From Candidatus Saccharimonadota bacterium (GTDB taxonomy: Bacteria; Patescibacteriota; Saccharimonadia; Saccharimonadales; VXPC01), in contig JAPOWB010000003.1 of the NCBI GenBank assembly GCA_026707815.1, forward strand, positions 131,380 to 195,379: a stretch of DNA of 64,000 nucleotides. Direction: 5' to 3'. Both the position numbers and the translations under genes were made by a program. This document shows, in pieces, positions 1 to 31,815 of this stretch (the first letter of the stretch is position 1; every line of letters starts with the position of its first letter). A model generated the notes under the pieces. That model saw only the letters and a list, made by a program, of their open reading frames with translations, searched no databases and was not told the DNA's origin.

Positions 1-733
1 CAAGTAGATGTTTGGGAATTATACTTAAAGTTAAATTGGTAGCAAATGGCGAAAAACTAGCTTCCAAAGTAAAGTTCACTGTATAATCATCAATTTTATC
101 CACTCCGACTCCCTGCCAATTATCTCTTAAGGGTGACTGAGCTTCAGGATTTTGGATAGTCTCAATGGTGAAGATTAAATCATCGGCTGTAATCGGTTGA
201 CCATCATGCCATTTTAAATCTTTTTTCAAAGTTAAAGTGTATTGCTGAGTTTTATTATCGGCAGTAATTGATTGGGCTAAAATGGGGACTAACTTATTTT
301 GAAAATCATATTCAAACAAGCTGGCAAAGACCAATTCTGAAACAGCTTGATCAGGCTGAGTTGTCGCATAAATGGGATTAAAATTAGACGGACGACCAAC
401 CAGACCCTCAGTATAAGTTCCTCCTTCCGTATAATGAATCTGAGTATAAAGAGGAGTTAAAGCTCTGATTTGAAATAATGTACCAGAAATTAAAAAAGTA
501 ATAAAAACCATCCAAATAATTAAAAACAGCAACATATTGCCTGAATTAGGCAAACGACTGACCAAATAACGGTCTAGTTGTTGGCTGGTACTTAATTTTA
601 AATTTGGTTTGGTATCTAATTGATGCCAACCCCACCATCGAGACGATTTAGTCACATCTAGATGCGGAGTTTTATCATCTTCAAATTCAAATCGAGTCTC
701 CGAATTCTCGGACTGAGAATTAGCTTTAGGCAT
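1..733 (-). CDS. ABC-transporter solute-binding protein, family 5 (peptide/nickel type), N-terminal part; gene runs off the left edge
   Basis: Own translation of minus strand from ATG at 733: MPKANSQSE... An N-terminal TM/signal segment (MLLFLIIWMVFITFLISG) is followed by LVFASLFEYDFQNKLVPILAQS...TLTLKKDLKWHDGQPITADDLIFT, typical of the start of SBP family 5. Absent from the ORF track because there is no stop in the window. Confidence 0.6.
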   Translation of the reverse strand, partial: MPKANSQSENSETRFEFEDDKTPHLDVTKSSRWWGWHQLDTKPNLKLSTSQQLDRYLVSRLPNSGNMLLFLIIWMVFITFLISGTLFQIRALTPLYTQIHYTEGGTYTEGLVGRPSNFNPIYATTQPDQAVSELVFASLFEYDFQNKLVPILAQSITADNKTQQYTLTLKKDLKWHDGQPITADDLIFTIETIQNPEAQSPLRDNWQGVGVDKIDDYTVNFTLEASFSPFATNLTLSIIPKHLL

Positions 734-766
734 TTTGAAACTTTCCCCCTTTTTTCGGGTGGAGAT

Positions 767-991
767 TTAGCTAATCAATAAACCAGCCATTAAAGAAACA
801 GAGAAAATTACGACCAGTAAGATGGTAATTTGATGAATGGTTTTTTCACTGCCTCGACGGACACTACTGCCACCAGATTCACCACCACCACCTAGTCCAG
901 CTCCCAAAGTTGCCCCCCTAGTCTGCATTAAAATTAAGCTAATTAATAAGATGCCAGAAATTAAAACAATGTAATCTAAGATACTATCCAT
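767..991 (-). CDS. secG: Preprotein translocase subunit SecG
   Basis: 74 aa with two TM helices separated by a Gly-rich loop (LMQTRGATLGAGLGGGGESGGS), the characteristic SecG layout. Confidence 0.8.
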   Translation of the reverse strand: MDSILDYIVLISGILLISLILMQTRGATLGAGLGGGGESGGSSVRRGSEKTIHQITILLVVIFSVSLMAGLLIS

Positions 992-1130
992 AAAAATTAT
1001 TTATCACTATTATAGCAAAGTTTTACTCTGTGAATATAGTAGATTAATATTAAAAGACTGGCCAGATATTTTAGCGAAATTTGTGCAACAACATTGTCGA
1101 AGTTTACACAATTAACCCTTAGTCAATCAC

Positions 1131-1421
1131 CTATAAATACTTCTGCTCTATGTCTTGAGCAATTATTTTGCCATTATCCTTAGTAATGCAAATACGGGCT
1201 ACAGTAGATTCTTTGAAGGACTCACATTGAATTACTATTCTATTGTTTTCATTGTTATCTGATTTATTAGTCGTACAAGCGAAAGAACTTATGCCTAAAG
1301 CTAAAGCCCCCATAGAAAGTAAAGCTCTTTCCTTTAGCTTCTTAGATCTATCTTGTTGAAGAGTAGTGTATTCGCTATTGTGAGTAAATTTCCAAATTCC
1401 AATATAGTCTATATTATACAA
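1131..1421 (-). CDS. Small hypothetical secreted/lipoprotein-like protein
   Basis: ORF only. Internal hydrophobic signal-like stretch LLSMGALALGISSFAC. No recognisable family. Confidence 0.3.
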   Translation of the reverse strand: MYNIDYIGIWKFTHNSEYTTLQQDRSKKLKERALLSMGALALGISSFACTTNKSDNNENNRIVIQCESFKESTVARICITKDNGKIIAQDIEQKYL

Positions 1422-1542
1422 GTTTTATAAGTAATATCAAGGTTGTATAATCTGTTAAACATCTAGATTGCTAAATCCCAAAACTGTTAATTAAACAATA
1501 GTATATTGAAATTAGACTTAGTCACTTAATTAAAGTAATTTG

Positions 1543-1581
1543 AGGTATTACAAGTATGAATATGACGCTGATGGTAATGAG
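1543..1581 (+). repeat. Orphan fragment of a YD-like repeat cassette
   Basis: aggtattacaagtatgaatatgacgctgatggtaatgag matches 23205-23243 inside CDS 22557-23531 with 3 mismatches in 39 nt. It has no promoter or leader, and tracked ORF 1540-1785 continues into unrelated sequence. Confidence 0.7.
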
Positions 1582-1824
1582 AGTATAATTCACACTACGC
1601 CACTCATAAATAAAGTTTTATTATTATCTTGGATAGCATTAGCTATACAAATAATGCCAATAATCCAACCAAACAGAGATACACTAAATAGATTGACTAT
1701 GCTAACCCCTAAAAATCCAAATACAAAGCTCTTTATCGCCTCTTTTAGGATTTATCTTTATTTAAAAAATGCCAAAACTCAATAAAATCATCGTCTTTGT
1801 TCGCCATAACATTTTATAAATCAA

Positions 1825-2319
1825 TTAGTGGTAATACTTGGTATCTATTAACCTGCCATCACCATCAAACCATTCTCTTTTAATCAACTCACCATCAGCA
1901 TCCCATTCATACTGGTAATACCGACTTAAATCACCATCAGCATCATACCATTCTGACTTTATCAGATTACTATCACCATCATATTCATATTGGTGATAAC
2001 TTGCTAAACTACCATCTGCATTATAGTCCTCTCTTTTAATCTGATTACCATCAGCATCATATTCATACTTATTGGATTGCCATAACTTGCCATCAGCACC
2101 ATAGTATTCAACACTAATCAAATTACCATCAGCATCACACAAAATATATTTTATTGTATCTGTATCTTTAGGACATTCTGTTTTATCTTTGGGGGTATCA
2201 ACTGGAGCTTTATTGAGTGGTTTTACTTCATCACCACTAGTTAAAGCATAGATGGTTATGCCAATGCCAACCAGTAAGACAATGATACTGGTAAGAATAA
2301 TGATTAGCTTTTTATTCAT
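1825..2319 (-). CDS. Membrane-anchored YD-like repeat protein (13-aa Y-D-x-D-G-N/K-L-I-K-x-E periodicity)
   Basis: Likely start is MNKKLIIILTSIIVLLVGIGITIYALTS (ATG at 2319; the track starts 11 codons earlier). Leader and KDKTECPKDTD module are near-identical to CDS 22557-23531. Body is YEYDADGNQIKRE / YDADGDLSRYYQ repeats, and the C-terminus DGDGRLIDTKYYH is shared with the paralog. Confidence 0.75.
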   Translation of the reverse strand: MNKKLIIILTSIIVLLVGIGITIYALTSGDEVKPLNKAPVDTPKDKTECPKDTDTIKYILCDADGNLISVEYYGADGKLWQSNKYEYDADGNQIKREDYNADGSLASYHQYEYDGDSNLIKSEWYDADGDLSRYYQYEWDADGELIKREWFDGDGRLIDTKYYH

Positions 2320-2398
2320 TAAATATAAGTATATCTCATAATCAATTACCAAAAAACAAACCCCCTAGTTAACATAATAATAATTACATTAAGTAGGA

Positions 2399-2427
2399 TT
2401 GATTTTTATCTGTAAAAATGATATAAT
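2399..2427 (+). promoter_or_regulatory. Sigma70-type promoter with extended -10, near-leaderless, for CDS 2436-2873
   Basis: TTGATT (2399-2404), 17 nt spacer, TGaTATAAT (-10 at 2422-2427), then 8 nt to ATG 2436. The same 29-nt element recurs at 21858-21886. Confidence 0.7.
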
Positions 2428-2435
2428 GGTTTCTT

Positions 2436-2873
2436 ATGATGACAAAAAATAAAAACACTATTCAATCTCCTAAAACTAATAGAGAAAGACAATATAGTGC
2501 TGAAGGTAGTTTGAATGGTATTGAACTCTATGATACCAATGGTAATAAGAGTAAACAAAACATCTACGATACTAATGGTAATCGGATTAAATCAGAATAC
2601 TATGATGCATATGGTAAGCTGATTAAAACAGAACACTATGATGCAAATGGTAATTTAAGGGAGTATTTCAGGTCTAAATATGATACCAATGGTAATAAGG
2701 TTAAAAAAGAAAAGTATTGGGGTAGTGGTAAGAGGTATGCAACAGAACACTATGATGCAGATGGTAATTTAATGTTTTATAACAGGTATGAATATGGTGA
2801 TGATGGTGATTTGATTACACTATACAGCCATAATGGTAATCATCAGTTAGTGGATAGGATGCATTTTAATTGA
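2436..2873 (+). CDS. YD-like repeat protein without signal peptide
   Basis: Repeats YDTNGNRIKSEYYDAYGKLIKTEHYDANGNL... The N-terminus MMTKNKNTIQSPKTNRERQYSAEGSL parallels MINKNTIKFPTDNIERQYNADDNL of CDS 21898-22455. Confidence 0.75.
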   Translation: MMTKNKNTIQSPKTNRERQYSAEGSLNGIELYDTNGNKSKQNIYDTNGNRIKSEYYDAYGKLIKTEHYDANGNLREYFRSKYDTNGNKVKKEKYWGSGKRYATEHYDADGNLMFYNRYEYGDDGDLITLYSHNGNHQLVDRMHFN

Positions 2874-2876
2874 TTT

Positions 2877-3113
2877 TTATAAGGCTTTCAGCCATTCGGC
2901 TTTATAGACATCTAAAATCTTTTTAATGGCAGTTAACTCACTTGGCAACTTGCTTATAAAAAGCTCTAAATCCTCAACCTCATATAAAGTAGTATCGTCA
3001 GTTTGAGGGGCTTTTAAGATAGCTATATTGTTTTCTAAATCAATCTCAATACTTATAAAAGGCTTACCATCAACTTGGCTGACTAGTTTTAAAGGCTCTT
3101 TCTTTTTAGTCAT
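2877..3113 (-). CDS. Hypothetical protein (78 aa)
   Basis: ORF only; no motif recognised. Confidence 0.35.
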   Translation of the reverse strand: MTKKKEPLKLVSQVDGKPFISIEIDLENNIAILKAPQTDDTTLYEVEDLELFISKLPSELTAIKKILDVYKAEWLKAL

Positions 3114-3208
3114 ATTTTATCCTTAAAATCCAATGTAATGTAATTGTAGCTATTTTTAGTTTTGGAGATTAATAAGATAATATGGTAAGTAAATAGTAGG
3201 ATATTTGG

Positions 3209-4033
3209 ATGGCTAAAATTTTAACTAAAAAACGATTATTGGAACACTCGGAAACAGAAAGCTATTTTAATCATGAGAATTTAAAAATTTACCAGCAAGA
3301 TTTTCTTAAATTAAAGACTCTGAAACCTAATACGATTGATTTAATCATTACCTCACCCCCTTATAATGTCAACATTGATTATAATTCCAATCCAGATGAT
3401 TTAAGTTATGAAGATTATTTGATTTTCAGCCATGCTTGGTTAAGTAAGTGTTATGAATTAGCTAAAAATGATGGACGACTGTGTTTGAATATACCCTTGG
3501 ATAAAAACAAAAATGGTCAGAGACCTGTTTATGCCGATTTGATGAACATTATTAAGCAGATTGGTTGGTCGTATCATTCAACAATTATTTGGCATGAAAG
3601 CAATATTTCTCGTCGAACTGCTTGGGGTTCATGGTTATCAGCTTGAGCTCCTTATGTTATTGCTCCAGTAGAAGTCATCGTGGTACTTTATAAAAAGTGT
3701 TGGAAAAAACACCTGAAAGGTCAATCTGACATCAACAAATCAGAATTTATGGCTTGGACTAATGGGGTTTGGCAATTTAATGGTCAATCTAAAGCTGGAG
3801 CCGGTGGACATCCAGCTGCTTTTCCGATTGAATTACCAAAAAGATGCCTTAAGTTATTTAGCTATGTTGGAGACACTATTTTAGATCCCTTTTTAGGTAG
3901 CGGTAGCACCTTGATTGCTACTCATCTGAATAACAGACAAGGTATTGGAGCTGAAATAGATAAGCATTATTGTGATATTGCTATCCAGAGATTGCAAAAA
4001 GAAGCTAAAATTAATCAGATTGATTTATTGTAA
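3209..4033 (+). pseudogene. Beta-class N4/N6 DNA methyltransferase interrupted by one in-frame TGA (3644-3646)
   Basis: Motif IV IITSPPYNV lies in the first ORF and motif I DPFLGSGST in the second, and both ORFs share one frame (3680-3209=471). Sequence across the stop, WGSWLSA*APYVIAPVEVIVVLYKK, still looks like the conserved family core. No restriction endonuclease partner is evident. Confidence 0.75.
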
Positions 4034-21295: not shown

Positions 21296-21625
21296 GTTGA
21301 AATTATTGCAGAGGCCATCGGAATTAAATCACATTTTTCATGTAATGATACTATCTTTACCTCAAACTCTAATAATTCAGCTAGAGAGAGATTGACAGGG
21401 CGAAGTCTGTATAGATTAGTCAAATCTCTTTTAAAAGAGCTGAATATAGATAAAGATATTCATAGTTTCAGACATTTTTTTGTTACCCAATTAATAGACA
21501 ATGGTTTTGAAATTATGCAGACAATGAAACTATCAAGGCATAAATCTTTACCGATGATGCAGGTTTATTATGATGAAAGGCAAAGCCTTGAATTTACTGA
21601 TGAAATGTTAAATAGTTTGAGATAG
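21296..21625 (+). pseudogene. C-terminal fragment of a tyrosine recombinase/integrase
   Basis: The open frame from 21296 has no plausible N-terminal domain. It reads LTGRSLYRLVKSLLKELNIDKDIHSFRHFFVTQLIDNGFEIMQTMKLSRHKSLPMMQVYYD, giving HxxR, a second His and a catalytic Tyr context. Confidence 0.7.
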
Positions 21626-21675
21626 AAATTAGTATGAGTGATATCCCTAAACAATGCTAAGAGATTTATGCTGGA

Positions 21676-21861
21676 GTGGTTAGCTTGATGTCTAATTACA
21701 AGCAATACCTTACCCAAGCCGAAGCAGATGCCTTTTTAAAATCAGTTGATGTCAATAGAGATAAACACATATCCCTTGCAGTAAAGAGTAAGCAAGGTTT
21801 AGATGCTATTACGAGTATTGCTTTAGGGGTTACTGGGTTATGTGGGGGGGGGCAGTATTGA
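21676..21861 (+). CDS. Hypothetical protein (61 aa) ending in a G9 tract
   Basis: ORF only. The last codons tgt ggg ggg ggg cag tat tga contain the homopolymer. Confidence 0.3.
   Translation: MVSLMSNYKQYLTQAEADAFLKSVDVNRDKHISLAVKSKQGLDAITSIALGVTGLCGGGQY
21844..21852 (+). repeat. G9 homopolymer tract 5 nt upstream of the -35 of the cassette promoter
   Basis: tgtGGGGGGGGGcagtaTTGATT. Confidence 0.95.
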
Positions 21862-21886
21862 TTTTTATCTGTAAAAATGATATAAT
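21858..21886 (+). promoter_or_regulatory. Sigma70-type promoter with extended -10 for CDS 21898-22455 (copy of 2399-2427)
   Basis: TTGATT, identical 17-nt spacer tttatctgtaaaaatga and TATAAT, then 11 nt to ATG 21898. Confidence 0.7.
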
Positions 21887-21897
21887 AACTTCTTATA

Positions 21898-22455
21898 ATG
21901 ATAAATAAAAATACTATTAAATTTCCTACAGATAATATAGAAAGACAATATAATGCTGATGATAATTTAGAAAGACATACCTATATTCGTATGATGGTAA
22001 AAAATAAATTAAACAACACCCTTAAATTTTCTAGAAATAATATAGAAAGACACTATGATGCTCTTGGTAATTTAAAAGGATATACCAGCTATGAATATAA
22101 TGATGATGATAGGTTAAAGTCGTATACCGAGGTTAAATGTGATGCTAATGGTAATCCGATTAAACAAGAACGATATGATGCTGATGGTCATTTAAAAGGA
22201 TATACCAACTATGAATATAATCGTGATGGTAGGTTAAAGTCGTATACCAAGTTTGAATGTGATGGTAATCTGATTACAAAAGAATACTATTATGCTAATG
22301 GTGAGAGGTTGAACAAAGAATACAAAGAATACTATGATACTGATGGTAGGTTAAAGTTCTATTTTAGGTATGAATATAATGGTGATGGTGATTTGATTGC
22401 AAAAGACAGCTATACTGGTGATGGTGATTTAGTAAATACCACGTATTACCACTAA
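21898..22455 (+). CDS. YD-like repeat protein without signal peptide
   Basis: Repeats YDALGNLKGYTSYEYNDDDRLKSY, CDANGNPIKQERYDADGHLKGY... and a C-terminus DGDLVNTTYYH. Confidence 0.75.
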   Translation: MINKNTIKFPTDNIERQYNADDNLERHTYIRMMVKNKLNNTLKFSRNNIERHYDALGNLKGYTSYEYNDDDRLKSYTEVKCDANGNPIKQERYDADGHLKGYTNYEYNRDGRLKSYTKFECDGNLITKEYYYANGERLNKEYKEYYDTDGRLKFYFRYEYNGDGDLIAKDSYTGDGDLVNTTYYH

Positions 22456-22493
22456 TTGATTTTTACCCCATAAAAAGTATATAACCCTAATAA

Positions 22494-22525
22494 CCCCCCC
22501 CCTTAATTAGGGGGTTTTGTTTTTT
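22494..22525 (+). terminator. Intrinsic terminator-like hairpin whose 5' arm is a C9 tract
   Basis: CCCCCCCCC-TTAATTA-GGGGG followed by TTTTGTTTTTT. Lies between the two cassette genes. Confidence 0.65.
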
Positions 22526-22556
22526 GGTAATTGATTATGAGATATACTTATAATCA

Positions 22557-23531
22557 ATGAATAAAAAGCTAATCATTATTCTTGCCAGCATCATTGTCTT
22601 ACTGGTTGGGATAGGTATAACCATCTATGCTTTAACTAGTGATGATGAAGTAAAAATAGTAAAATCTGATGATACTACAAACAATACGCCAGATACAGAT
22701 AAAGAAGCTCAAACTAGTAAGCCAGTTGATACTACTAAAGAAGTAAAGCCAGTTGATAAAGCTCCAGCTGATGCCCCCAAAGATAAAACAGAATGTCCTA
22801 AAGATACAGATTACAGAAAACATACTTGTGATACTGGTGGCAATGTGATTAAATCAGAAATCTATGATGATGGTAAGTTAGGGGGGTATGTTCAGTTTGA
22901 ATACAATGCTAATGGTAAGTTGATTAAACAAGATGTTTATGATACTGATGGTAATTTGGCTTGGACTGAACACTATGATGTAGATGGTAATTTGATTGAA
23001 ACTATCTCACATAAAGATAAAACAGAATGCCCTAAAGATACAGATATCAAAAAATATATTTGTGATGCTGATGGTAATGTGATTAAAAGAGAACACTATG
23101 ATGTTGATGGTAAGTTAAAGTGGTATTACAAATATGAATATGATGCTGACGGCAATGTGATTAAAAGAGAATGGCATAATTATAATGCTGATGGTAAGTT
23201 AAGGGGGTATTACAAATATGAATATGATGCTGATGGTAATGAGATTAAATATGAACACTATGATACTGATGGTAATTTAAGGGGATATAATAAGTCTGAA
23301 TATGATGCTGATGGTAATAGAGTTAAATTTGAATACTATGGTGCTGATGGTAATCTTATTCAGCAAGACCACTATGATGCTGATGGTAATGTGATTAAAA
23401 GAGAAAACTATGACGCTGATGGTAATTCAAAGGGATATGAGAAGTATGAATATGATGCTGATGGTAATCAGATTAAATCAGAATGGTTTGATGGTGATGG
23501 TAAGTTGATAAATACTAGGTATTACCACTAA
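22557..23531 (+). CDS. Membrane-anchored YD-like repeat protein with internal module duplication
   Basis: The leader MNKKLIIILASIIVLLVGIGITIYALTS matches CDS 1825-2319. The KDKTECPKDTD..C.. module occurs twice (nt ~22781 and ~23013). Long run of YEYDADGNxIKxE / YDxDGKLxGYYK repeats, ending DGDGKLINTRYYH. Confidence 0.8.
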   Translation: MNKKLIIILASIIVLLVGIGITIYALTSDDEVKIVKSDDTTNNTPDTDKEAQTSKPVDTTKEVKPVDKAPADAPKDKTECPKDTDYRKHTCDTGGNVIKSEIYDDGKLGGYVQFEYNANGKLIKQDVYDTDGNLAWTEHYDVDGNLIETISHKDKTECPKDTDIKKYICDADGNVIKREHYDVDGKLKWYYKYEYDADGNVIKREWHNYNADGKLRGYYKYEYDADGNEIKYEHYDTDGNLRGYNKSEYDADGNRVKFEYYGADGNLIQQDHYDADGNVIKRENYDADGNSKGYEKYEYDADGNQIKSEWFDGDGKLINTRYYH

Positions 23532-23559
23532 TTGATTTTTAACCTATAAAAATATATAA

Positions 23560-23590
23560 CCCCCTTTTTTTAATTAGGGGTTTTTATTCT
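23560..23590 (+). terminator. Intrinsic terminator-like hairpin
   Basis: CCCCCTTTTTTTAATTAGGGG followed by TTTTTATT, homologous to the 22494-22525 element. Confidence 0.5.
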
Positions 23591-23663
23591 GATTATTTAA
23601 AAGGATTAAAAGGCGATTTACTAATTAAATTATCTAATAAAGTGGAAGAATCTATTCTAAATT

Positions 23664-23739
23664 TGGTGGGTCGTCTGGGACTCGAACCCAGGGCACACGG
23701 GTTAAAAGCCCGTTGCTCTACCAGCTGAGCTAACGACCC
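23664..23739 (-). tRNA. tRNA-Lys (anticodon UUU), CCA encoded
   Basis: Reverse complement gggtcgttagctcagctggtagagcaacgggcttttaacccgtgtgccctgggttcgagtcccagacgacccacca folds as a cloverleaf: 7-bp acceptor, D arm gctc/gagc, anticodon stem acggg/cccgt with loop cuUUUaa, T arm ctggg/cccag. Confidence 0.95.
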
Positions 23740-27708: not shown

Positions 27709-30700
27709 TTACACATAGTCTAAATCAGAAGAAGAGTCATGATCATCTAATCCACCATTGGAAGAATCATTTCTATGATGCTTCTTGCTCAAAGCTAGAA
27801 AGATTAAAGTCACAATCAAAAGAGCAACTAAAGCCCCTCCAATAATCAAGATTAGATCTTGGTTATCTGTCTCTTCCTCATCAGCTGGAGTTGACTCAGT
27901 TGTTTCAGCCTCATCGGTTGGTTTTTCTTCAGATGACGGTTGAGTTGACTCAGGCTGGGCAGCCTTATCCAAACTGACCGTTAAAGATTCATAAGTGTAA
28001 TTCCCCTTGGCATCAGCGACTCTGAAACAGTAAACTGCTCCGCTTGAGGCTTGATTGAGATTCACTTCGTTGCCTGATTTGACTAGACTGCTATTTCTGA
28101 AAGCTCTATAATCGCAAGCTTGATTATCTTTCAAAACAACATATTGCCAATTTTTAACATCTTCATCAGAAGTTGCCATGATGGTTTCAGCAGTTTGCTT
28201 GACCGTCACTTGAGGAGCTTTGGTATCAATGCCAGTCACAAAAATCTTAGCATGACCAACAATACCATTGTCAGCTACAACCTTGAAACAATACCAATAA
28301 CCATTACTACTCTCGTTTAGAATCAGCTTGTGGGCTGATTTGGAAGCTTCTGAGAATTCTAGCTGATTATCTGGGCTACAATCTATGTCAGTTCTTGATC
28401 TAAGCCACTGCCAAGTGTTGTTGTCAACATTATCAGCTGAGGCGGTCAAAGTAGTATTTCTTAGAGTCAGGCTAATAACTGGAGCTTCAAGATTAATCTC
28501 ATTTAAAACTATCCCCTTATAACCATAGTTACCATGTTTATCAGCTACTCGGAAACAATAATAAATGAAATCGCTATCATGGGTGGTCACATCAAAAGAT
28601 ATTTCAGATGATTCAACTTGGTTAAGCTTATCAAAAGTTAAATCTTCTCCTTGGCAATCTAGCTGCGTCTTGCTGTAAAAGTAACCCCAAGTTGTCACAT
28701 CTAAATCATCATCTGTACTCTCAATGGTTAGTAAAATATTATTCTGAGTAATCTTAATCGTTGGAGCTTGACGATCAATTCTGATTTTACTGTAAGTAGT
28801 TAGCCCTCGCTGGTTTGAAACCTTGAAACATAGCCAGTGATAAGCTGAGCCAAGATTCTTTACTTGTAAGTTAAGCTCTAGCGAATTATTGTGGTTTTTA
28901 ACAAACTGCAGGTTGCTATTGGGGCCACAATATGGCTCAGTCAGAGATAAAGCCCAAGCCCAAGTTGAGTAATTGACATTAGCTGAAGTTGAGCGAGCAA
29001 TAATCCTGCCCGCTGGAGTTTCGAGAGTGATGACTGGTGAACTTTGATCATCAACTTTACCAACGCTATAAAGAGCATAAATATAATTACCAGCATAATC
29101 AGCAACCTTGAAACATAACCAGTGATTATTATCTACTTCTCTTAATAACAATTGCCTATTAGCCGGCAAGCGAGTAATTAAAGAATTAGAATAAGTCTGA
29201 CAATCAACGCTTTGACTAAATTTAGCATACTGCCAAGTATCGTGATCAACATCTGTGGACGAAGAATTAATGGTTAAGATATTAGCTGTATCGTTGAACT
29301 TAAAGCCAATCACAGGAGTCGATAAATCATAGCGGTATTTGGCGTACCCATAATTGCGAGCATTACCAGCTTGGCTTGAAGTATCAGCTACTCGGAAGCA
29401 ATAGTAAGCTCCGTGTTGTGCATCAGAAATATTGCTAATAACAATCTTCTGAGTTGAAGATGTCAACAAATTAGTATTTACATCTGTATAAGTGACTTTA
29501 GAACAATCACCGGGATCAGAGCTGAAGGTTGCCCAAGCCCAACTGTAGCCATCAACATCATCGGCGGTTGTACTAACCTCGATGACTCGAGCTTGAGATT
29601 TTTGGATAACTTTCAGAGCCGGTGGATTATCAATAGTAGTAATTTGGTTGCTTTTAGCATAGCCGTAGTTACCGGCTTTGTCAGCCACTCGGAAACAGTA
29701 ATATCTGTCACTATCGCTTTCACTGAGAGTTACTGTATTGTTCTGGCTATTAGCCCGATTAAAGCTTAAATCTTTATCACAGTCAAAATCATCATTGACT
29801 TGACTGCGAGCATACTGCCAAGAATTGACATTAATGTCTGTTGCCTTAGTAGTAGCTGTTAATGTTGAGCCTTTTTGCCCAACTTCAACTACAGGGGCTG
29901 TAGCATCAAAGGTTTTGATACGAATTTTACCGTAACCGAAGAAATCAAGATTGTTTAAAACTCGGAAGCAAAACCAATAATTAATATCATCTTCAACTAA
30001 ATTCAAAGTCTGATCGTCAAAGCTTCGCCAAGTCAAATTGGGAGCAACAGTTCTACAATTAGATGGCTGGTTGGTTCGAGACACTCGAGCATAACGCCAA
30101 GAATCTTTATCAATAGCCACATTATTGCTGACTTGAACTGTCAAGACAGATCCTTTTTGAGTCATACTAATAGTTGGTGTGGCAGTATTCAAAGAAGTAA
30201 CATGATAAGCATCGCTATAACCAACATTGCCGTATTGATCCTCAACTTTAAAGCAAAAGTAATCATTGACATCATTGCTATCTAGTCTAATTTGAGAGCC
30301 TCGATTAACAGTTAAATCTTCAAAAGTATCCTCATCGCATTCCAAATCATCTTCATCTTCAACCCATCGCCAAGTGCTACTTTGAGGTCGATCTTTGCTA
30401 GAGGAGGTAGCCCACAATAAATTATTGGTTTGACGCAATTTAATTGTCGGAGCAACAACGTCAATTTTGATAGATTTATAAGCATAATTACCAACTAAAC
30501 TATCAGCCACTCTCAAGCATAGCCATTGATCCTCAACGTCTTCGTCAGCTCCAGTATCAGTCAAATCAATAATAGTATAGCTTCGTTTAGTCGTGGAACG
30601 ATTTTCAAGCGTCAGACCAACAGAAGACCATCCAGTCAATTGAGAATGACAATCATCATCTGTCTCAATCACATATTGCCAAGAATTTCCATCAACTTCA

Positions 30701-31815
30701 ACCGCATCATAAGCATTGGCTTTGACAGTTAAACGGGATTGTTGAAGACCACTTAAAGTGGGCGGATTGTTGATGGTGGTAGCACTGACATGGGAATAAG
30801 CGTAATGACCAACATTATCAGCTACTCGGAAACAATAAGTCCGACCTGCAGTTGACTGAGTTAGGGTAATAACTGCTCTATCTCGACTAATAACCGCACC
30901 TTTGAAAGTATCCAAGTCTTTGAAACTAGTGTATCGACTATTACATTTAGAAGCTGAAATAGTCGCATACTGCCAAGAATCTAAATTAATATTGGCATTA
31001 CTATCAGGTTGACTATCATTATTGTCATCTTGGAAGACTGAAACTGTTAATATGGCATTATTTTGGTTAACGCTTAATTGTGGTGAGCGAGTATCAACTT
31101 GAAAACCAGCTGTATTATAGCCCACATTACCCTGATCATCAGTCAGCTTAAAGCAGTAGTATTTACCGTGATTACCATCACTGAGAGGCATAATCAGAGT
31201 TTTGGTTGTAGCGACATTTTGCTCAGTAAAAGATCCTGACTCAGCACTACAATCACTAACAGCTGTATCAGAGATAAGAACTTCCCAAGTGGCGATTTGA
31301 CTAATATCATCAGCTGTTGCCACTAAGTTATTGGCTTGTTGCTTGACGGCGACTACTGGAGCTTGTTGATCAATAGTGAACAAAGCGTAGTACTCTTTAG
31401 TGCTAGCATCGTTATTCGGGCGTTGATACAAAACCTTCAAACAATAATATGAATGTCCAACCCCAAGAGTAGCAGTGAAAGTCGCTTGATTAGCAACATT
31501 ATCCCAATCAGCTAATCTTGTCGTTCCAAAGCCTTGAGCAGAACAAGACTGATTGTTGACCACTTGGCTATAGTGGATATGTGTCTCAGCCTGGGAATTG
31601 GTAAAATATTTGACTTCGTAACCTTCAGGGGCTTCTACAGTAGCAGTCACCTCTGCATTTGTTCTAGAAAATGTAACCGTCGGAGCAACCGCTTGGACTA
31701 ATAACCACCCCAAATAAATAGATGAAATAAGCACAATAGAAGCTAGAAAAACTAAATAGCTAACCCATATAGTTTTTCGAGTTCGTGGCTGAGCAAGATT
31801 ATTCACTTGATTCAA
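27709..31815 (-). CDS. Giant surface protein: N-terminal signal/anchor, 13 tandem ~95-aa two-cysteine repeats, acidic stalk, C-terminal TM anchor and acidic cytoplasmic tail
   Basis: Repeat consensus is APxIxVxQxxNxLTATxxDxDVDxxSWQYAxxxxxxDCxxxxxF...(25-35 aa)...YYCFRVADKAGNYGY. C-terminal TM is LILIIGGALVALLIVTLIFLAL. Likely true start is GTG 31806, 9 nt after AAGGAG (31816-31821), rather than the tracked TTG 31815. Confidence 0.85.
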   Translation of the reverse strand: MNQVNNLAQPRTRKTIWVSYLVFLASIVLISSIYLGWLLVQAVAPTVTFSRTNAEVTATVEAPEGYEVKYFTNSQAETHIHYSQVVNNQSCSAQGFGTTRLADWDNVANQATFTATLGVGHSYYCLKVLYQRPNNDASTKEYYALFTIDQQAPVVAVKQQANNLVATADDISQIATWEVLISDTAVSDCSAESGSFTEQNVATTKTLIMPLSDGNHGKYYCFKLTDDQGNVGYNTAGFQVDTRSPQLSVNQNNAILTVSVFQDDNNDSQPDSNANINLDSWQYATISASKCNSRYTSFKDLDTFKGAVISRDRAVITLTQSTAGRTYCFRVADNVGHYAYSHVSATTINNPPTLSGLQQSRLTVKANAYDAVEVDGNSWQYVIETDDDCHSQLTGWSSVGLTLENRSTTKRSYTIIDLTDTGADEDVEDQWLCLRVADSLVGNYAYKSIKIDVVAPTIKLRQTNNLLWATSSSKDRPQSSTWRWVEDEDDLECDEDTFEDLTVNRGSQIRLDSNDVNDYFCFKVEDQYGNVGYSDAYHVTSLNTATPTISMTQKGSVLTVQVSNNVAIDKDSWRYARVSRTNQPSNCRTVAPNLTWRSFDDQTLNLVEDDINYWFCFRVLNNLDFFGYGKIRIKTFDATAPVVEVGQKGSTLTATTKATDINVNSWQYARSQVNDDFDCDKDLSFNRANSQNNTVTLSESDSDRYYCFRVADKAGNYGYAKSNQITTIDNPPALKVIQKSQARVIEVSTTADDVDGYSWAWATFSSDPGDCSKVTYTDVNTNLLTSSTQKIVISNISDAQHGAYYCFRVADTSSQAGNARNYGYAKYRYDLSTPVIGFKFNDTANILTINSSSTDVDHDTWQYAKFSQSVDCQTYSNSLITRLPANRQLLLREVDNNHWLCFKVADYAGNYIYALYSVGKVDDQSSPVITLETPAGRIIARSTSANVNYSTWAWALSLTEPYCGPNSNLQFVKNHNNSLELNLQVKNLGSAYHWLCFKVSNQRGLTTYSKIRIDRQAPTIKITQNNILLTIESTDDDLDVTTWGYFYSKTQLDCQGEDLTFDKLNQVESSEISFDVTTHDSDFIYYCFRVADKHGNYGYKGIVLNEINLEAPVISLTLRNTTLTASADNVDNNTWQWLRSRTDIDCSPDNQLEFSEASKSAHKLILNESSNGYWYCFKVVADNGIVGHAKIFVTGIDTKAPQVTVKQTAETIMATSDEDVKNWQYVVLKDNQACDYRAFRNSSLVKSGNEVNLNQASSGAVYCFRVADAKGNYTYESLTVSLDKAAQPESTQPSSEEKPTDEAETTESTPADEEETDNQDLILIIGGALVALLIVTLIFLALSKKHHRNDSSNGGLDDHDSSSDLDYV

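What the first reader, a model, noticed from the sequence alone, without database searches (positions are those of the whole stretch)
2868..2879. Conserved boundary motif AATTGATTT(T)TA at both ends of every YD-like cassette
The motif forms the -35 region of the promoters (2399, 21858). It also overlaps or follows the stop codon of all four genes: cac TAA TTGATTTTTA at 22453 and 23529, aat TGA TTTTTA at 2868-2879, and cac TAA TTGATTTATA on the minus strand at ~1812-1827. The 3' flanks at 22456-22490 and 23532-23560 align further with the promoter (ATTGATTTTTAcCccaTAAAAAgtATATAAc vs ATTGATTTTTAtCtgTAAAAAtgATATAAt). Each gene is therefore bracketed by promoter-like elements. TAATTGA supplies stops in two frames. 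The layout suggests modular units that can be exchanged by recombination at a shared junction. I know of no described system with this layout.
Basis: partly seen in the sequence, partly recalled or inferred. Interest (0 to 1): 0.6.

Follow-up and report, generated by a model that had tools for sequence, protein, structure and literature searches.

The report
Promoter-derived boundary repeat of YD-repeat genes
The 12-base motif is real and far from random: it is the front half of a promoter carried by a small mobile element of Saccharibacteria, and whole or truncated copies of that promoter sit directly on the stop codon of each YD-repeat gene, most likely as a footprint of head-to-tail gene duplication rather than a new recombination system.

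Summary
All six motif sites exist as described. The exact 11-mer ATTGATTTTTA occurs 5 times in the window (0.4 expected), always at the four YD-repeat genes. In 139 kb of window plus related Candidatus Saccharibacteria loci it occurs 14 times (0.8 expected). Five of these are true promoter modules (P: TTGATT, 17 nt, TGnTATAAT). Nine lie on or just after the stop codon of a YD-repeat gene.

The 3' copies in the window are either full-length paralogues of P that lack the essential last T of the -10 and run into a GC-hairpin terminator (E: after A2 and B2), or bare 12-mers (after A1 and B1).

In a more distant lineage (L197) every gene of a tandem array is followed by the next gene's real promoter, and the last gene by a truncated copy. 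This is the (promoter-gene)n-promoter' signature of tandem duplication.

The genes lie in islands built from pieces of a 9-10 kb integrase/primase/terminase element that carries P without any YD gene.

Left and right flanks of the motif are shuffled between copies, so rearrangements did occur next to it. The breakpoints differ, the layout is stable in near-identical genomes, and no intact recombinase or consistent core site is present.

This is an ordinary mechanism in an under-studied phylum, so interest is modest.

The parts
2397..2427 (+). P1: promoter module GATTGATTTTTATCTGTAAAAATGATATAAT of A1. The -35 TTGATT is at 2399-2404, the spacer is 17 nt, the -10 is TG-extended TATAAT at 2422-2427, and the ATG lies 8-11 nt downstream (leaderless geometry).
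   Evidence: 10 of 12 matches, TG present. Conserved in L189, L196, L200 and L193 with changes only at non-critical positions.
21856..21886 (+). P2: the same promoter module in front of A2. The TGA of the remnant ORF that precedes it lies inside TTGATT.
22453..22485 (+). E1: the A2 stop codon plus a full-length promoter paralogue, TAATTGATTTTTACCCCATAAAAAGTATATAAC. The -10-like hexamer TATAAC lacks the final T.
   Evidence: (not reported by the promoter scan).
22494..22525 (+). Intrinsic terminator after E1: C9, TTAATTA loop, G5, then TTTTGTTTTTT.
23529..23560 (+). E2: the B2 stop codon plus a promoter paralogue, TAATTGATTTTTAACCTATAAAAATATATAAC.
23560..23588 (+). GC hairpin plus T run after E2 (a weaker terminator).
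2868..2879 (+). Bare 12-mer at the end of A1 (the reported site). The A1 stop TGA is at 2871-2873. The last three bases, TTA (2877-2879), are the stop codon of the convergent 78-aa ORF on the minus strand. BLAST homology to the mobile element (L193/L195) ends at 2875.
1815..1827 (-). 12-mer variant TAATTGATTTATA at the end of B1. The same variant occurs in the orthologous loci L200 and L201.
1825..2352 (-). B1: YD/DUF2963-repeat protein, 175 aa by ORF call, with an N-terminal membrane anchor.
   Evidence: RHS_repeat 29.7 bits, DUF2963 25.4 bits, both above cut-off.
2436..2873 (+). A1: YD-like repeat protein, 145 aa, without a signal sequence.
21898..22455 (+). A2: YD-like repeat protein, 185 aa.
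22557..23531 (+). B2: YD/DUF2963-repeat protein, 324 aa.
22511..22556 (+). B-type 5' module. It holds the 8-mer AATTGATT at 22529-22536 and the candidate -10 TATACT at 22543-22548, 7 nt before the ATG. It is 94% identical to the inverted copy at 2221-2365 in front of B1.
   Evidence: (I3).
23589..23637 (+). Conserved 50-nt block ('R2') that follows E plus terminator in the window, L001, L190 and L198. In the window it abuts the 3' end of tRNA-Lys (23664-23739, minus strand).
21392..21861 (+). Mobile-element debris upstream of P2. It comprises a C-terminal fragment of a Xer-like tyrosine recombinase (21392-21625) and a remnant ORF, MSDIPKQC*, with an in-frame stop (21634-21861).
2877..4033 (.). 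Mobile-element debris next to A1. It comprises the 78-aa ORF (2877-3113, minus strand; 93-98% nt identity to L193/L195) and an N6/N4 DNA methylase interrupted by TGA at 3644-3646.
1544..1600 (+). Orphan fragment of a YD-repeat gene, 93% identical to 23206-23247. It is a trace of earlier rearrangement.
   Evidence: (D3).

Best explanation
AATTGATTTTTA is the upstream (-35) half of a roughly 30-nt promoter module, P = ATTGATTTTTA-TCTG-TAAAAATGrTAwAAT. P belongs to a small integrase/primase/terminase mobile element of Candidatus Saccharibacteria.

The YD/DUF2963-repeat genes are cargo of this element family. They multiplied as promoter-plus-gene units packed so tightly that each stop codon (TAA or TGA of TAATTGA) lies in or just before the next unit's promoter.

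After duplication, deletion and inversion, every gene still carries at its 3' end whatever is left of 'the next promoter'. In the window this is a full but disabled copy followed by a terminator (E, after A2 and B2), or only the first 12 nt (after A1 and B1).

Shown:
- the sequences and their non-random, family-specific distribution;
- the promoter geometry of P and the defect in E;
- the array structure in L197;
- the mobile-element context.

Inferred:
- that P fires and gives leaderless mRNAs;
- that the window's E copies do not fire;
- that unequal or homologous recombination between module copies produced the arrays.
For: 1. Distribution. The exact 11-mer occurs 14 times in 139 kb of window plus related loci against about 0.8 expected, and every hit is a P copy or sits at the 3' end of a YD-repeat gene. 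It is absent from 1.02 Mb around about 150 distant homologues, apart from L001. A profile of the element finds no further copy in the window.

2. P is a promoter by geometry. It has TTGATT, a 17-nt spacer and TGnTATAAT, with the ATG 8-11 nt after the -10 and no Shine-Dalgarno sequence. The differences among the P copies (TGA/TGG, TATAAT/TAAAAT) spare A2 and T6 of the -10.

3. P occurs in the element L193/L194 between a 120-aa ORF and the MerR-like/primase operon, with no YD gene nearby.

4. The window E copies have TATAAC and are followed within 8-10 nt by GC hairpins and T runs.

5. In L197 each gene of the array P0088 / 61-aa ORF / P0090 is followed, within 50 nt of its stop (4-6 nt after the ancestral stop), by ATTGATTTT..TGCTATAAT, which is the next gene's promoter. 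The last gene, and L192's single gene, are followed by only the first ~27 nt.

6. Both window loci are islands holding debris of the element: the 78-aa ORF at 93-98% identity, a broken methylase, an integrase fragment and an MSD remnant. Integrase genes or fragments also flank the arrays in L001, L196 and L197.

7. Locus 1 is colinear and 97.5% identical in L200, and shows the same layout in L201 and L202. The arrangement is therefore inherited, not switching.
Against: - The 11-mer is invariant in all 3' copies, even where the rest has diverged (L192, L190:2002) and where the stop codon sits 6 nt upstream. That is more conservation than a dead relic would be expected to show. However, the copies fall into only two or three independent lineages, and gene conversion could homogenise them.
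- In the L192/L197 lineage TTGATT lies 24 nt from the -10, so there it is not acting as a -35 yet is still kept.
- Left and right flanks of the motif are discordant between copies, which would also fit a preferred junction.
- L198's E copy has TATAGT, with a T at position 6, so some 3' copies might fire.
- There are no transcript data.
Confidence: 0.6

Rival explanations
1. The 3' copies are functional cis-elements kept by selection rather than relics. They could be a binding site for an element or host regulator (the inverted repeat ATTTTTA-N3-5-TAAAAAT), a boundary or insulator acting with the terminator, or weak promoters whose transcripts are controlled at the following hairpin.
For: - ATTGATTTTTA is invariant in six aligned 3' flanks from four genomes while the neighbouring bases vary.
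- The inverted repeat TTTTTA/TAAAAA is kept with a variable loop and folds as a small hairpin in 5 of 6 flanks.
- The P spacer carries a CAGATA/TATCTG motif that is enriched around P in L193 and in the non-coding part of L001, which suggests a bound regulator.
- L198's E copy has a usable -10, TATAGT.
Against: - The spacing of the inverted repeat varies (3-5 nt), which is unusual for a dimeric binding site.
- The E copies lack the CAGATA motif.
- The A/U hairpin is weak, and fold energies do not differ from shuffles (z-scores -2.0 to +0.2).
- RNAalifold supports only the terminator, and there is no Rfam match.
- A promoter that fires straight into a terminator has no obvious product.
- After A1 and B1 only 12 nt remain.
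Confidence: 0.2
2. The motif is the core of a site-specific recombination site. The element's Xer-like tyrosine recombinase would use it to capture, invert or exchange YD-gene cassettes, in an integron- or shufflon-like system.
For: - Left and right flanks of the motif are re-assorted. The flank pairings A1, L001, L189 and B2/L190g2 give all four combinations of C-terminus type and right-flank type.
- L189 has a B-type gene where the window has A1 next to the same 78-aa ORF flank, as an inversion between the two inverted 12-mers (1815-1826 and 2868-2879) would produce.
- Tyrosine recombinase genes or fragments lie next to the arrays.
- The B-type 5' modules also begin at (A)ATTGATT.
Against: - The candidate sites differ in central sequence and length (TCTG, CCCCA, ACCTA, GCT), whereas tyrosine recombinases need matching overlap regions.
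- Three copies have only one arm.
- The breakpoints of partial copies are not at one position.
- The recombinase in the window is a 77-aa fragment.
- The full-length relatives score below every curated cut-off, including integron integrase.
- The units have their own promoters, so inversion would not switch expression.
- Locus 1 is identical in layout in four assemblies.
- The left junction predicted by a simple inversion is not seen in L189.
Confidence: 0.08
3. The conserved gene ends (the last ~40 coding nt, the motif and E) are kept as homology anchors for RecA-dependent gene conversion among paralogues. This would diversify the repeat bodies of surface or effector proteins, as conserved flanks do in pilS/vls-type systems.
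For: - 5' modules (94% identity between B1 and B2, about 90% to L190) and 3' modules are much more conserved than the repeat bodies (65-80%).
- Mosaic genes exist: A2 has an A-type 5' end and a B-type 3' end, and L001 and L198 have other 5' ends.
- An orphan gene fragment lies at 1544-1600.
Against: - All copies look expressible, and no silent-cassette archive is seen.
- Twelve nucleotides alone are too short for efficient homologous recombination.
- The internal 78-nt repeats already give ample homology.
- No population data are available.
Confidence: 0.1
4. The motif is a chance AT-rich word.
For: - The window is 36% G+C.
- Similar TTGATTTTTA..TAAAAA..TATAAT strings occur as generic promoters in 39 unrelated AT-rich viral contigs.
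Against: - Five observed against 0.41 expected in the window, and 14 against 0.8 in 139 kb.
- None of 100 shuffles reaches the observed count.
- Every copy is at the same gene-relative position in several genomes.
Confidence: 0.01

Closest known systems
Tandem gene arrays made by unequal crossing-over between flanking direct repeats: (promoter-gene)n followed by a partial unit
   Same: Units lie head to tail with the same junction, and a truncated copy of the unit's first element follows the last gene (L197, L192; in the window, E after B2). Paralogues differ mainly in the number of internal repeats.
   Different: The junction is extremely tight, with the stop codon inside or next to the -35. 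In the window lineage the internal copies have become non-promoters followed by terminators. One pair is divergent rather than tandem.
Multigene surface-protein families with a shared promoter/5' cassette (Borrelia erp/UHB loci; Mycoplasma vsp, vpma and vsa loci with an adjacent Xer-like recombinase). This comparison is from my own knowledge.
   Same: A family of small repeat-rich secreted or anchored proteins has a near-identical promoter, 5' UTR and signal-peptide module and variable repeat bodies. The genes lie on or next to mobile DNA, with a tyrosine recombinase gene nearby.
   Different: There is no single expression site, no defined inverted recombination sites in the 5' region, and no intact recombinase in the window. 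Orthologous loci are colinear, so phase variation by inversion is not indicated.
Integron gene cassettes (attC at the 3' end of each cassette)
   Same: A conserved element with an internal inverted repeat lies directly after each ORF, and a tyrosine recombinase is in the neighbourhood.
   Different: The recombinase is not an integron integrase (40.6 bits against a cut-off of 265). There is no R''-L''/L'-R' attC architecture or GTTRRRY core. The units have their own promoters and are not all in one orientation.
Phytoplasma 'Scorpion' DUF2963 beta-hairpin-repeat effectors (bioRxiv 10.1101/2025.07.14.664665)
   Same: The proteins match the same Pfam family (DUF2963) and have the same ~26-residue repeat period (78-nt DNA period). 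Repeat number varies between paralogues. The genes are linked to plasmid-like or mobile elements in a genome-reduced, host-dependent bacterium.
   Different: The phylum is different (Saccharibacteria). The conserved stop/promoter boundary motif is not described there. Sequence similarity is only at the level of the repeat.
Neisseria Sma/Cla repeat downstream of pilE and pilS copies (from my own knowledge)
   Same: A conserved non-coding element lies at the 3' end of every member of a variable gene family.
   Different: The Sma/Cla repeat is about 65 bp, is not promoter-derived, and acts in a silent-donor gene-conversion system, for which there is no evidence here.

Membership tests
Sigma-70-type promoter (P copies at 2397-2427 and 21856-21886) | A -35 hexamer, a 16-18 nt spacer, and a -10 with A at position 2 and T at position 6 | tested here: met
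   TTGATT, 17 nt, TATAAT, preceded by TG.
Sigma-70-type promoter (P copies at 2397-2427 and 21856-21886) | Placed in front of an ORF and conserved there in relatives | tested here: met
   The ATG lies 8-11 nt after the -10. The same module stands in front of A-type genes in L189, L196 and L200, and in front of the regulatory operon in L193.
Sigma-70-type promoter (P copies at 2397-2427 and 21856-21886) | A mapped transcription start | not testable with these tools
   No transcript data are available.
Sigma-70-type promoter (3' copies E at 22454-22485 and 23530-23560) | A -10 with T at position 6 | tested here: not met
   The hexamer is TATAAC in both window copies and in L001 and L190 g2. The promoter scan does not report them. 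L198 is an exception, with TATAGT.
Intrinsic terminator (after E1 and E2) | A GC-rich hairpin followed by a T run | tested here: met
   The stem at 22498-22514 plus TTTTGTTTTT is reported. This hairpin is the only consensus structure across six 3' flanks, with one compensatory pair. The hairpin after B2 is weaker, with 4-5 pairs.
Integron cassette / attC | An integron integrase | tested here: not met
   The best full-length relative, P0066, scores 40.6 bits against a cut-off of 265 for TIGR02249. It is Xer-like, below all cut-offs. The window holds only a 77-aa fragment.
Integron cassette / attC | Promoterless cassettes in one orientation, each ending in an imperfect palindromic attC | tested here: not met
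   The units have their own promoters, and B1 and A1 are divergent. The only palindrome is a 6-7 bp A/T repeat with a 3-5 nt spacer.
Shufflon / invertible multigene phase-variation locus | An intact adjacent recombinase, inverted crossover sites of fixed structure, and alternative arrangements among close relatives | tested here: not met
   The recombinase is fragmentary. The sites are heterogeneous. Locus 1 is colinear in the window, L200, L201 and L202. Only the more distant L189 (82% identity) differs.
Tandem array from unit duplication | The same junction between successive units, and a partial unit after the last gene | tested here: met
   The L197 array and L192 show this. So do window A2-E-B2-E and L190 g1-E-g2-E.
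YD / RHS-repeat and DUF2963 repeat proteins (the genes) | Pfam RHS_repeat (PF05593) or DUF2963 (PF11178) above the gathering score | tested here: met
   B2 scores 48.7 and 42.3 bits, and B1 29.7 and 25.4 bits (cut-offs 22 and 22.6). A1 and A2 are below the cut-offs but align with B1 and B2. There is a weak PDB hit to an Rhs protein, E = 1.8e-4.
Rhs/YD polymorphic toxin | A large YD shell with an Rhs core motif and a C-terminal toxin domain | tested here: not met
   The proteins are 145-324 aa and consist only of an anchor and repeats. No further domain is found.

The most novel reading that the evidence does not exclude
The 11-mer ATTGATTTTTA, with its flanking A/T inverted repeat, is a recombination hotspot that the Xer-like integrase of a phage-satellite-like element of Saccharibacteria uses to capture and reshuffle promoter-equipped effector cassettes. 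This would be an integron-like cassette system in the Candidate Phyla Radiation, and it would explain why left and right flanks of the motif are re-assorted and why the motif is retained even in truncated copies.
Probability: 0.07. Interest if true: 0.75.

Novelty: new member of a known kind. Interest (0 to 1): 0.3.

Why it matters
The result explains a striking sequence pattern without requiring a new mechanism. It links a family of small YD/DUF2963 ('Scorpion'-like) repeat proteins, plausible surface or effector proteins of epibiotic Saccharibacteria, to a compact integrase/primase/terminase element.

It also gives a precise marker, ATTGATTTTTA on the stop codon, for finding such genes and islands in related genomes.

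If the minority reading were right and the motif were a recombinase-used junction, it would be a cassette-exchange system in a phylum where almost nothing is known about mobile DNA.

Tried and rejected
- **Viral-contig scan.** I scanned viral contigs for TTGATTTTTA-N3-5-TAAAAA-N1-3-TATAA. The 39 hits are all generic AT-rich phage or giant-virus promoters, and none is near a YD gene. The string type is therefore a common promoter shape and this scan did not help.
- **Protein-guided scans.** Scans of genome, viral and metagenome contigs returned about 150 distant homologues (21-53% identity; only L001 exceeds 46%) without the motif, apart from L001. They served only as a negative control.
- **Exact-protein look-ups.** Look-ups of B2 and P0083 found nothing on record.
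- **Alternative genetic code.** I considered TGA as a sense codon because of the in-frame TGA in the methylase. TGA ends 5 of 52 long ORFs, the gain in ORF length is unremarkable, and the methylase is split in the same way in L202. I rejected recoding in favour of a pseudogene.
- **RNA element in the 3' flank.** There is no Rfam hit. RNAalifold gives only the terminator. Fold energies do not differ from shuffles.
- **att duplication.** I searched for a duplicate of the tRNA-Lys 3' end or the R2 block that would delimit an integrated element, and found nothing beyond 12-13 nt chance matches.
- **MITE-like insertion.** I considered E plus terminator as a MITE-like insertion flanked by AATTGATT target duplications. 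There are no terminal inverted repeats, and the R2-type copies lack the second 8-mer, so I rejected this.
- **Simple inversion in L189.** A simple inversion between the two inverted 12-mers explains L189's right junction. The predicted left junction is absent, so the case stays open.
- **Decayed 12-mer in L193/L195.** A possible decayed 12-mer lies after the 78-aa ORF in L193/L195 (CTAATCTATTTTA). The similarity is too weak to decide.
- **Literature.** Searches found no description of this motif or element. The only relevant paper concerns DUF2963 in phytoplasmas.
Full report
**1. The observation**

The window (36% G+C) holds four genes for small YD-like repeat proteins:
- B1, 1825-2352 (minus strand)
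- A1, 2436-2873 (plus strand)
- A2, 21898-22455 (plus strand)
- B2, 22557-23531 (plus strand)

B1 and B2 pass the Pfam cut-offs for RHS_repeat and DUF2963. A1 and A2 fall below them but align with B1 and B2.

- Exact AATTGATTTTTA lies at 2868, 22454 and 23530.
- One-mismatch copies lie at 1815-1826 (minus strand), 2397 and 21856.
- With one mismatch allowed there are 10 hits against 3.7 +/- 2.2 in shuffles, and no shuffle reaches 10.
- The exact 11-mer ATTGATTTTTA occurs 5 times against 0.41 expected, every time at these genes.

The stops lie in the motif. TGA is used by A1, and TAA by A2, B2 and B1. A 4-nt indel before the motif explains why A1 uses the second stop of TAATTGA.

The statement that each gene is bracketed by promoter-like elements is too strong. 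There are four full ~30-nt copies. After A1 and B1 only the 12-mer is present. B1 has no same-strand copy upstream, only the 8-mer AATTGATT that also precedes B2.

**2. Two kinds of full copy**

The copies in front of A1 and A2 (P) are textbook promoters.
- They have TTGATT, a 17-nt spacer and TG-extended TATAAT.
- The ATG lies 8-11 nt after the -10 and there is no Shine-Dalgarno sequence. This suggests leaderless mRNAs, which is an inference.

The copies after A2 and B2 (E) align with P over its whole length but differ in three ways.
- They have a C-rich loop (CCCCA, ACCTA) in place of TCTG.
- They have TATAAC in place of TATAAT, so they lack the T at the last -10 position. The scan does not report them.
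- Each E is followed within about 10 nt by a GC hairpin and a T run. This hairpin is the only structure that RNAalifold supports across six homologous 3' flanks.

No Rfam family matches. The small A/U hairpin inside E is no more stable than in shuffled sequence.

**3. Relatives**

Scans guided by the proteins gave about 150 distant homologues from many phyla. In 1.02 Mb around them the motif is absent, with one exception: the closest hit, L001.

Protein searches then identified the close relatives as MAGs labelled Candidatus Saccharibacteria bacterium. Their contigs carry the motif at the same place.

In ten non-redundant loci, ATTGATTT position relative to the stop is as follows.
- In 11 of 14 YD-repeat ORFs it lies within -6 to +20 of the stop.
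- In two more it lies shortly downstream of a premature stop or frameshift.
- Only one truncated gene, in L189, lacks it, and a degenerate TAATTGACTT lies 14 nt beyond its stop (read by eye).

In L192 and L197 the stop is 6 nt upstream (TAACCCACATTGATTTTTA). The element therefore does not depend on the stop codon.

Over 139 kb the exact 11-mer occurs 14 times against about 0.8 expected, and every hit is a P copy or a gene 3' end. A profile built from 19 copies finds nothing else in the window.

**4. What P belongs to**

L193, L194 and L195 are 8-10 kb contigs that encode the following:
- a MerR-like protein;
- primase/helicase-like proteins;
- small and large terminase subunits;
- a Xer-like tyrosine integrase;
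- a restriction-modification pair;
- a 78-aa ORF.

This gene set resembles a phage satellite or small integrative element.

The 78-aa ORF and its surroundings are 93-98% identical to window 2875-3145. P occurs in L193 and L194 after a 120-aa ORF and ahead of the MerR/primase operon, with no YD gene nearby. CAGATA/TATCTG motifs surround it there; P carries one in its spacer and E does not.

Both window loci are islands that hold debris of such an element.
- Locus 1 holds the 78-aa ORF and a methylase interrupted by TGA.
- Locus 2 holds a 77-aa C-terminal integrase fragment and a remnant ORF with an in-frame stop.

The related loci carry comparable pieces.
- L001 and L198 carry a YD gene, E, a terminator and a conserved 50-nt block; in L001 an integrase gene follows directly.
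- L196 repeats the window's order of integrase fragment, remnant ORF, P and an A-type gene, at a different chromosomal site.
- L197 has an integrase fragment next to its array.

**5. The array signature**

In L197 the three genes P0088, a 61-aa ORF and P0090 are each preceded by CCCACATTGATTTT(T)ACCCCTTAAATTGCTGACTGCTATAATTGAGCTTA. This element has a TG-extended -10. It begins 4-6 nt after the stop after P0088 and about 20 nt after the stop of the 61-aa ORF.

The last gene of L197 and the single gene of L192 are followed by only the first ~27 nt, without the -10. This is the (promoter-gene)n-promoter' pattern expected from tandem duplication of promoter-plus-gene units.

The window's E copies are homologous to these promoters, with L190:2002 as an intermediate form. 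In L190, a genome whose locus 1 is 97.5% identical to the window, two B-type genes show the same gene-E-terminator-gene-E-terminator layout.

**6. Is the motif a recombination junction?**

Some evidence points that way. The 45 nt to the left and the 45 nt to the right of the motif give discordant relationships.
- L189's left flank is 91% identical to that of L190 g2, but its right flank matches A1's (73%).
- A1's left flank is closest to L001's (71%), but their right flanks are unrelated.
- B1 and B2 share the left flank (87%) but not the right (49%).

Rearrangements have therefore occurred immediately downstream of these genes. L189 has a B-type gene where the window has A1, beside the same 78-aa ORF.

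Other evidence points against a dedicated mechanism.
- The breakpoints are not at one position: 6 nt after the stop at A1, 10 nt at B1, and about 33 nt in L192 and L197. This fits random deletion end points constrained only to spare the stop codon.
- The candidate sites differ in central sequence and length.
- Three copies have only one arm.
- The recombinase is a fragment, and its full-length relatives are not integron integrases.
- The units have their own promoters.
- Locus 1 has the same layout in the window, L200, L201 and L202.
- No att-like duplication delimits locus 2.

**7. Conclusion**

The most likely explanation (0.6) is that the 12-mer is the -35 half of an element-borne promoter. 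The 3' copies are what remains of 'the next unit's promoter' after duplication and rearrangement of tightly packed promoter-gene units. In the window lineage they are disabled and backed by terminators.

The alternatives are:
- a selected cis-function of the 3' copies (0.2);
- homology anchors for gene conversion (0.1);
- a true site-specific cassette junction (0.08);
- chance (0.01).

The invariance of the 11-mer in diverged 3' copies is the one observation that the relic model explains least well. The few independent lineages sampled limit its weight.

**8. Comparison and novelty**

The proteins share the Pfam family and the 26-residue repeat period with the plasmid-linked 'Scorpion' DUF2963 effectors of phytoplasmas.

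The DNA layout resembles tandem arrays with a partial terminal unit, and multigene families with a shared promoter cassette. It fails the tests for integron cassettes and for shufflon-type loci.

I rate it a new member of a known kind, of modest interest.

Noticed in passing
window 3209-4033: The N6/N4 DNA methylase gene is interrupted by an in-frame TGA at 3644-3646. The same split (145 + 94 aa) is annotated in the near-identical scaffold L202. It therefore looks like a real pseudogene inside mobile-element debris and not a sign of TGA recoding.
   Followed up: partly
L193 1-9743, L194, L195: These 8-10 kb contigs encode a MerR-like protein, primase/helicase-like proteins, small and large terminase subunits, a Xer-like integrase, a restriction-modification pair and a 78-aa ORF. 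No capsid genes are seen. They look like a phage-satellite-like integrative element of Saccharibacteria.
   Followed up: partly
L193 770-1090; L001 1-1500; window 2409-2414 and 21868-21873: The CAGATA/TATCTG motif is enriched 5-10 fold in the non-coding regions around P and in L001's repeat-rich non-coding stretch. One copy sits in the spacer of every P copy but not in the E copies. It may be an operator or iteron.
   Followed up: partly
window 23589-23637 and tRNA-Lys 23664-23739 (-): A 50-nt block is conserved at about 90% after E plus terminator in the window, L001, L190 and L198. In the window it lies against the 3' end of tRNA-Lys, and in L001 just upstream of an integrase gene. It may be an attachment-site arm, but no duplicated core was found.
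   Followed up: partly
window 2221-2365 and 22511-22655: The 5' modules of B1 and B2 (promoter region plus signal anchor) are 94% identical inverted repeats 20 kb apart. This suggests recent gene conversion, and the pair is a potential substrate for a 20-kb inversion.
   Followed up: no
window 7473, 11597, 11744, 21844, 22494, 41000: Homopolymer runs of 9-10 G or C occur in a 36% G+C sequence. Two of them flank A2: G9 just upstream of P2 and C9 in the terminator stem. They may be slippage-prone tracts.
   Followed up: no
window 1544-1600 (+) and 21634-21861 (+): There is an orphan 57-nt fragment of a YD-repeat gene, and a remnant ORF (MSDIPKQC*...) whose intact start serves as the N-terminus of the YD gene in L001. 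Both are traces of past module shuffling.
   Followed up: partly
window 1-2984 vs L200: The left end of the window is 97.5% identical to contig JAPOVG010000001.1 of MAG GCA_026708245.1 (Candidatus Saccharibacteria bacterium). That contig breaks inside the 78-aa ORF. The same MAG's second YD array (L190) lies at a different chromosomal site and is only 65-80% identical to A2 and B2.
   Followed up: partly
window 27709-31815 (-): A 1368-aa ORF has internal DNA repeats spaced about 285 and 580 nt apart. It is a large repeat protein unrelated to the finding.
   Followed up: no
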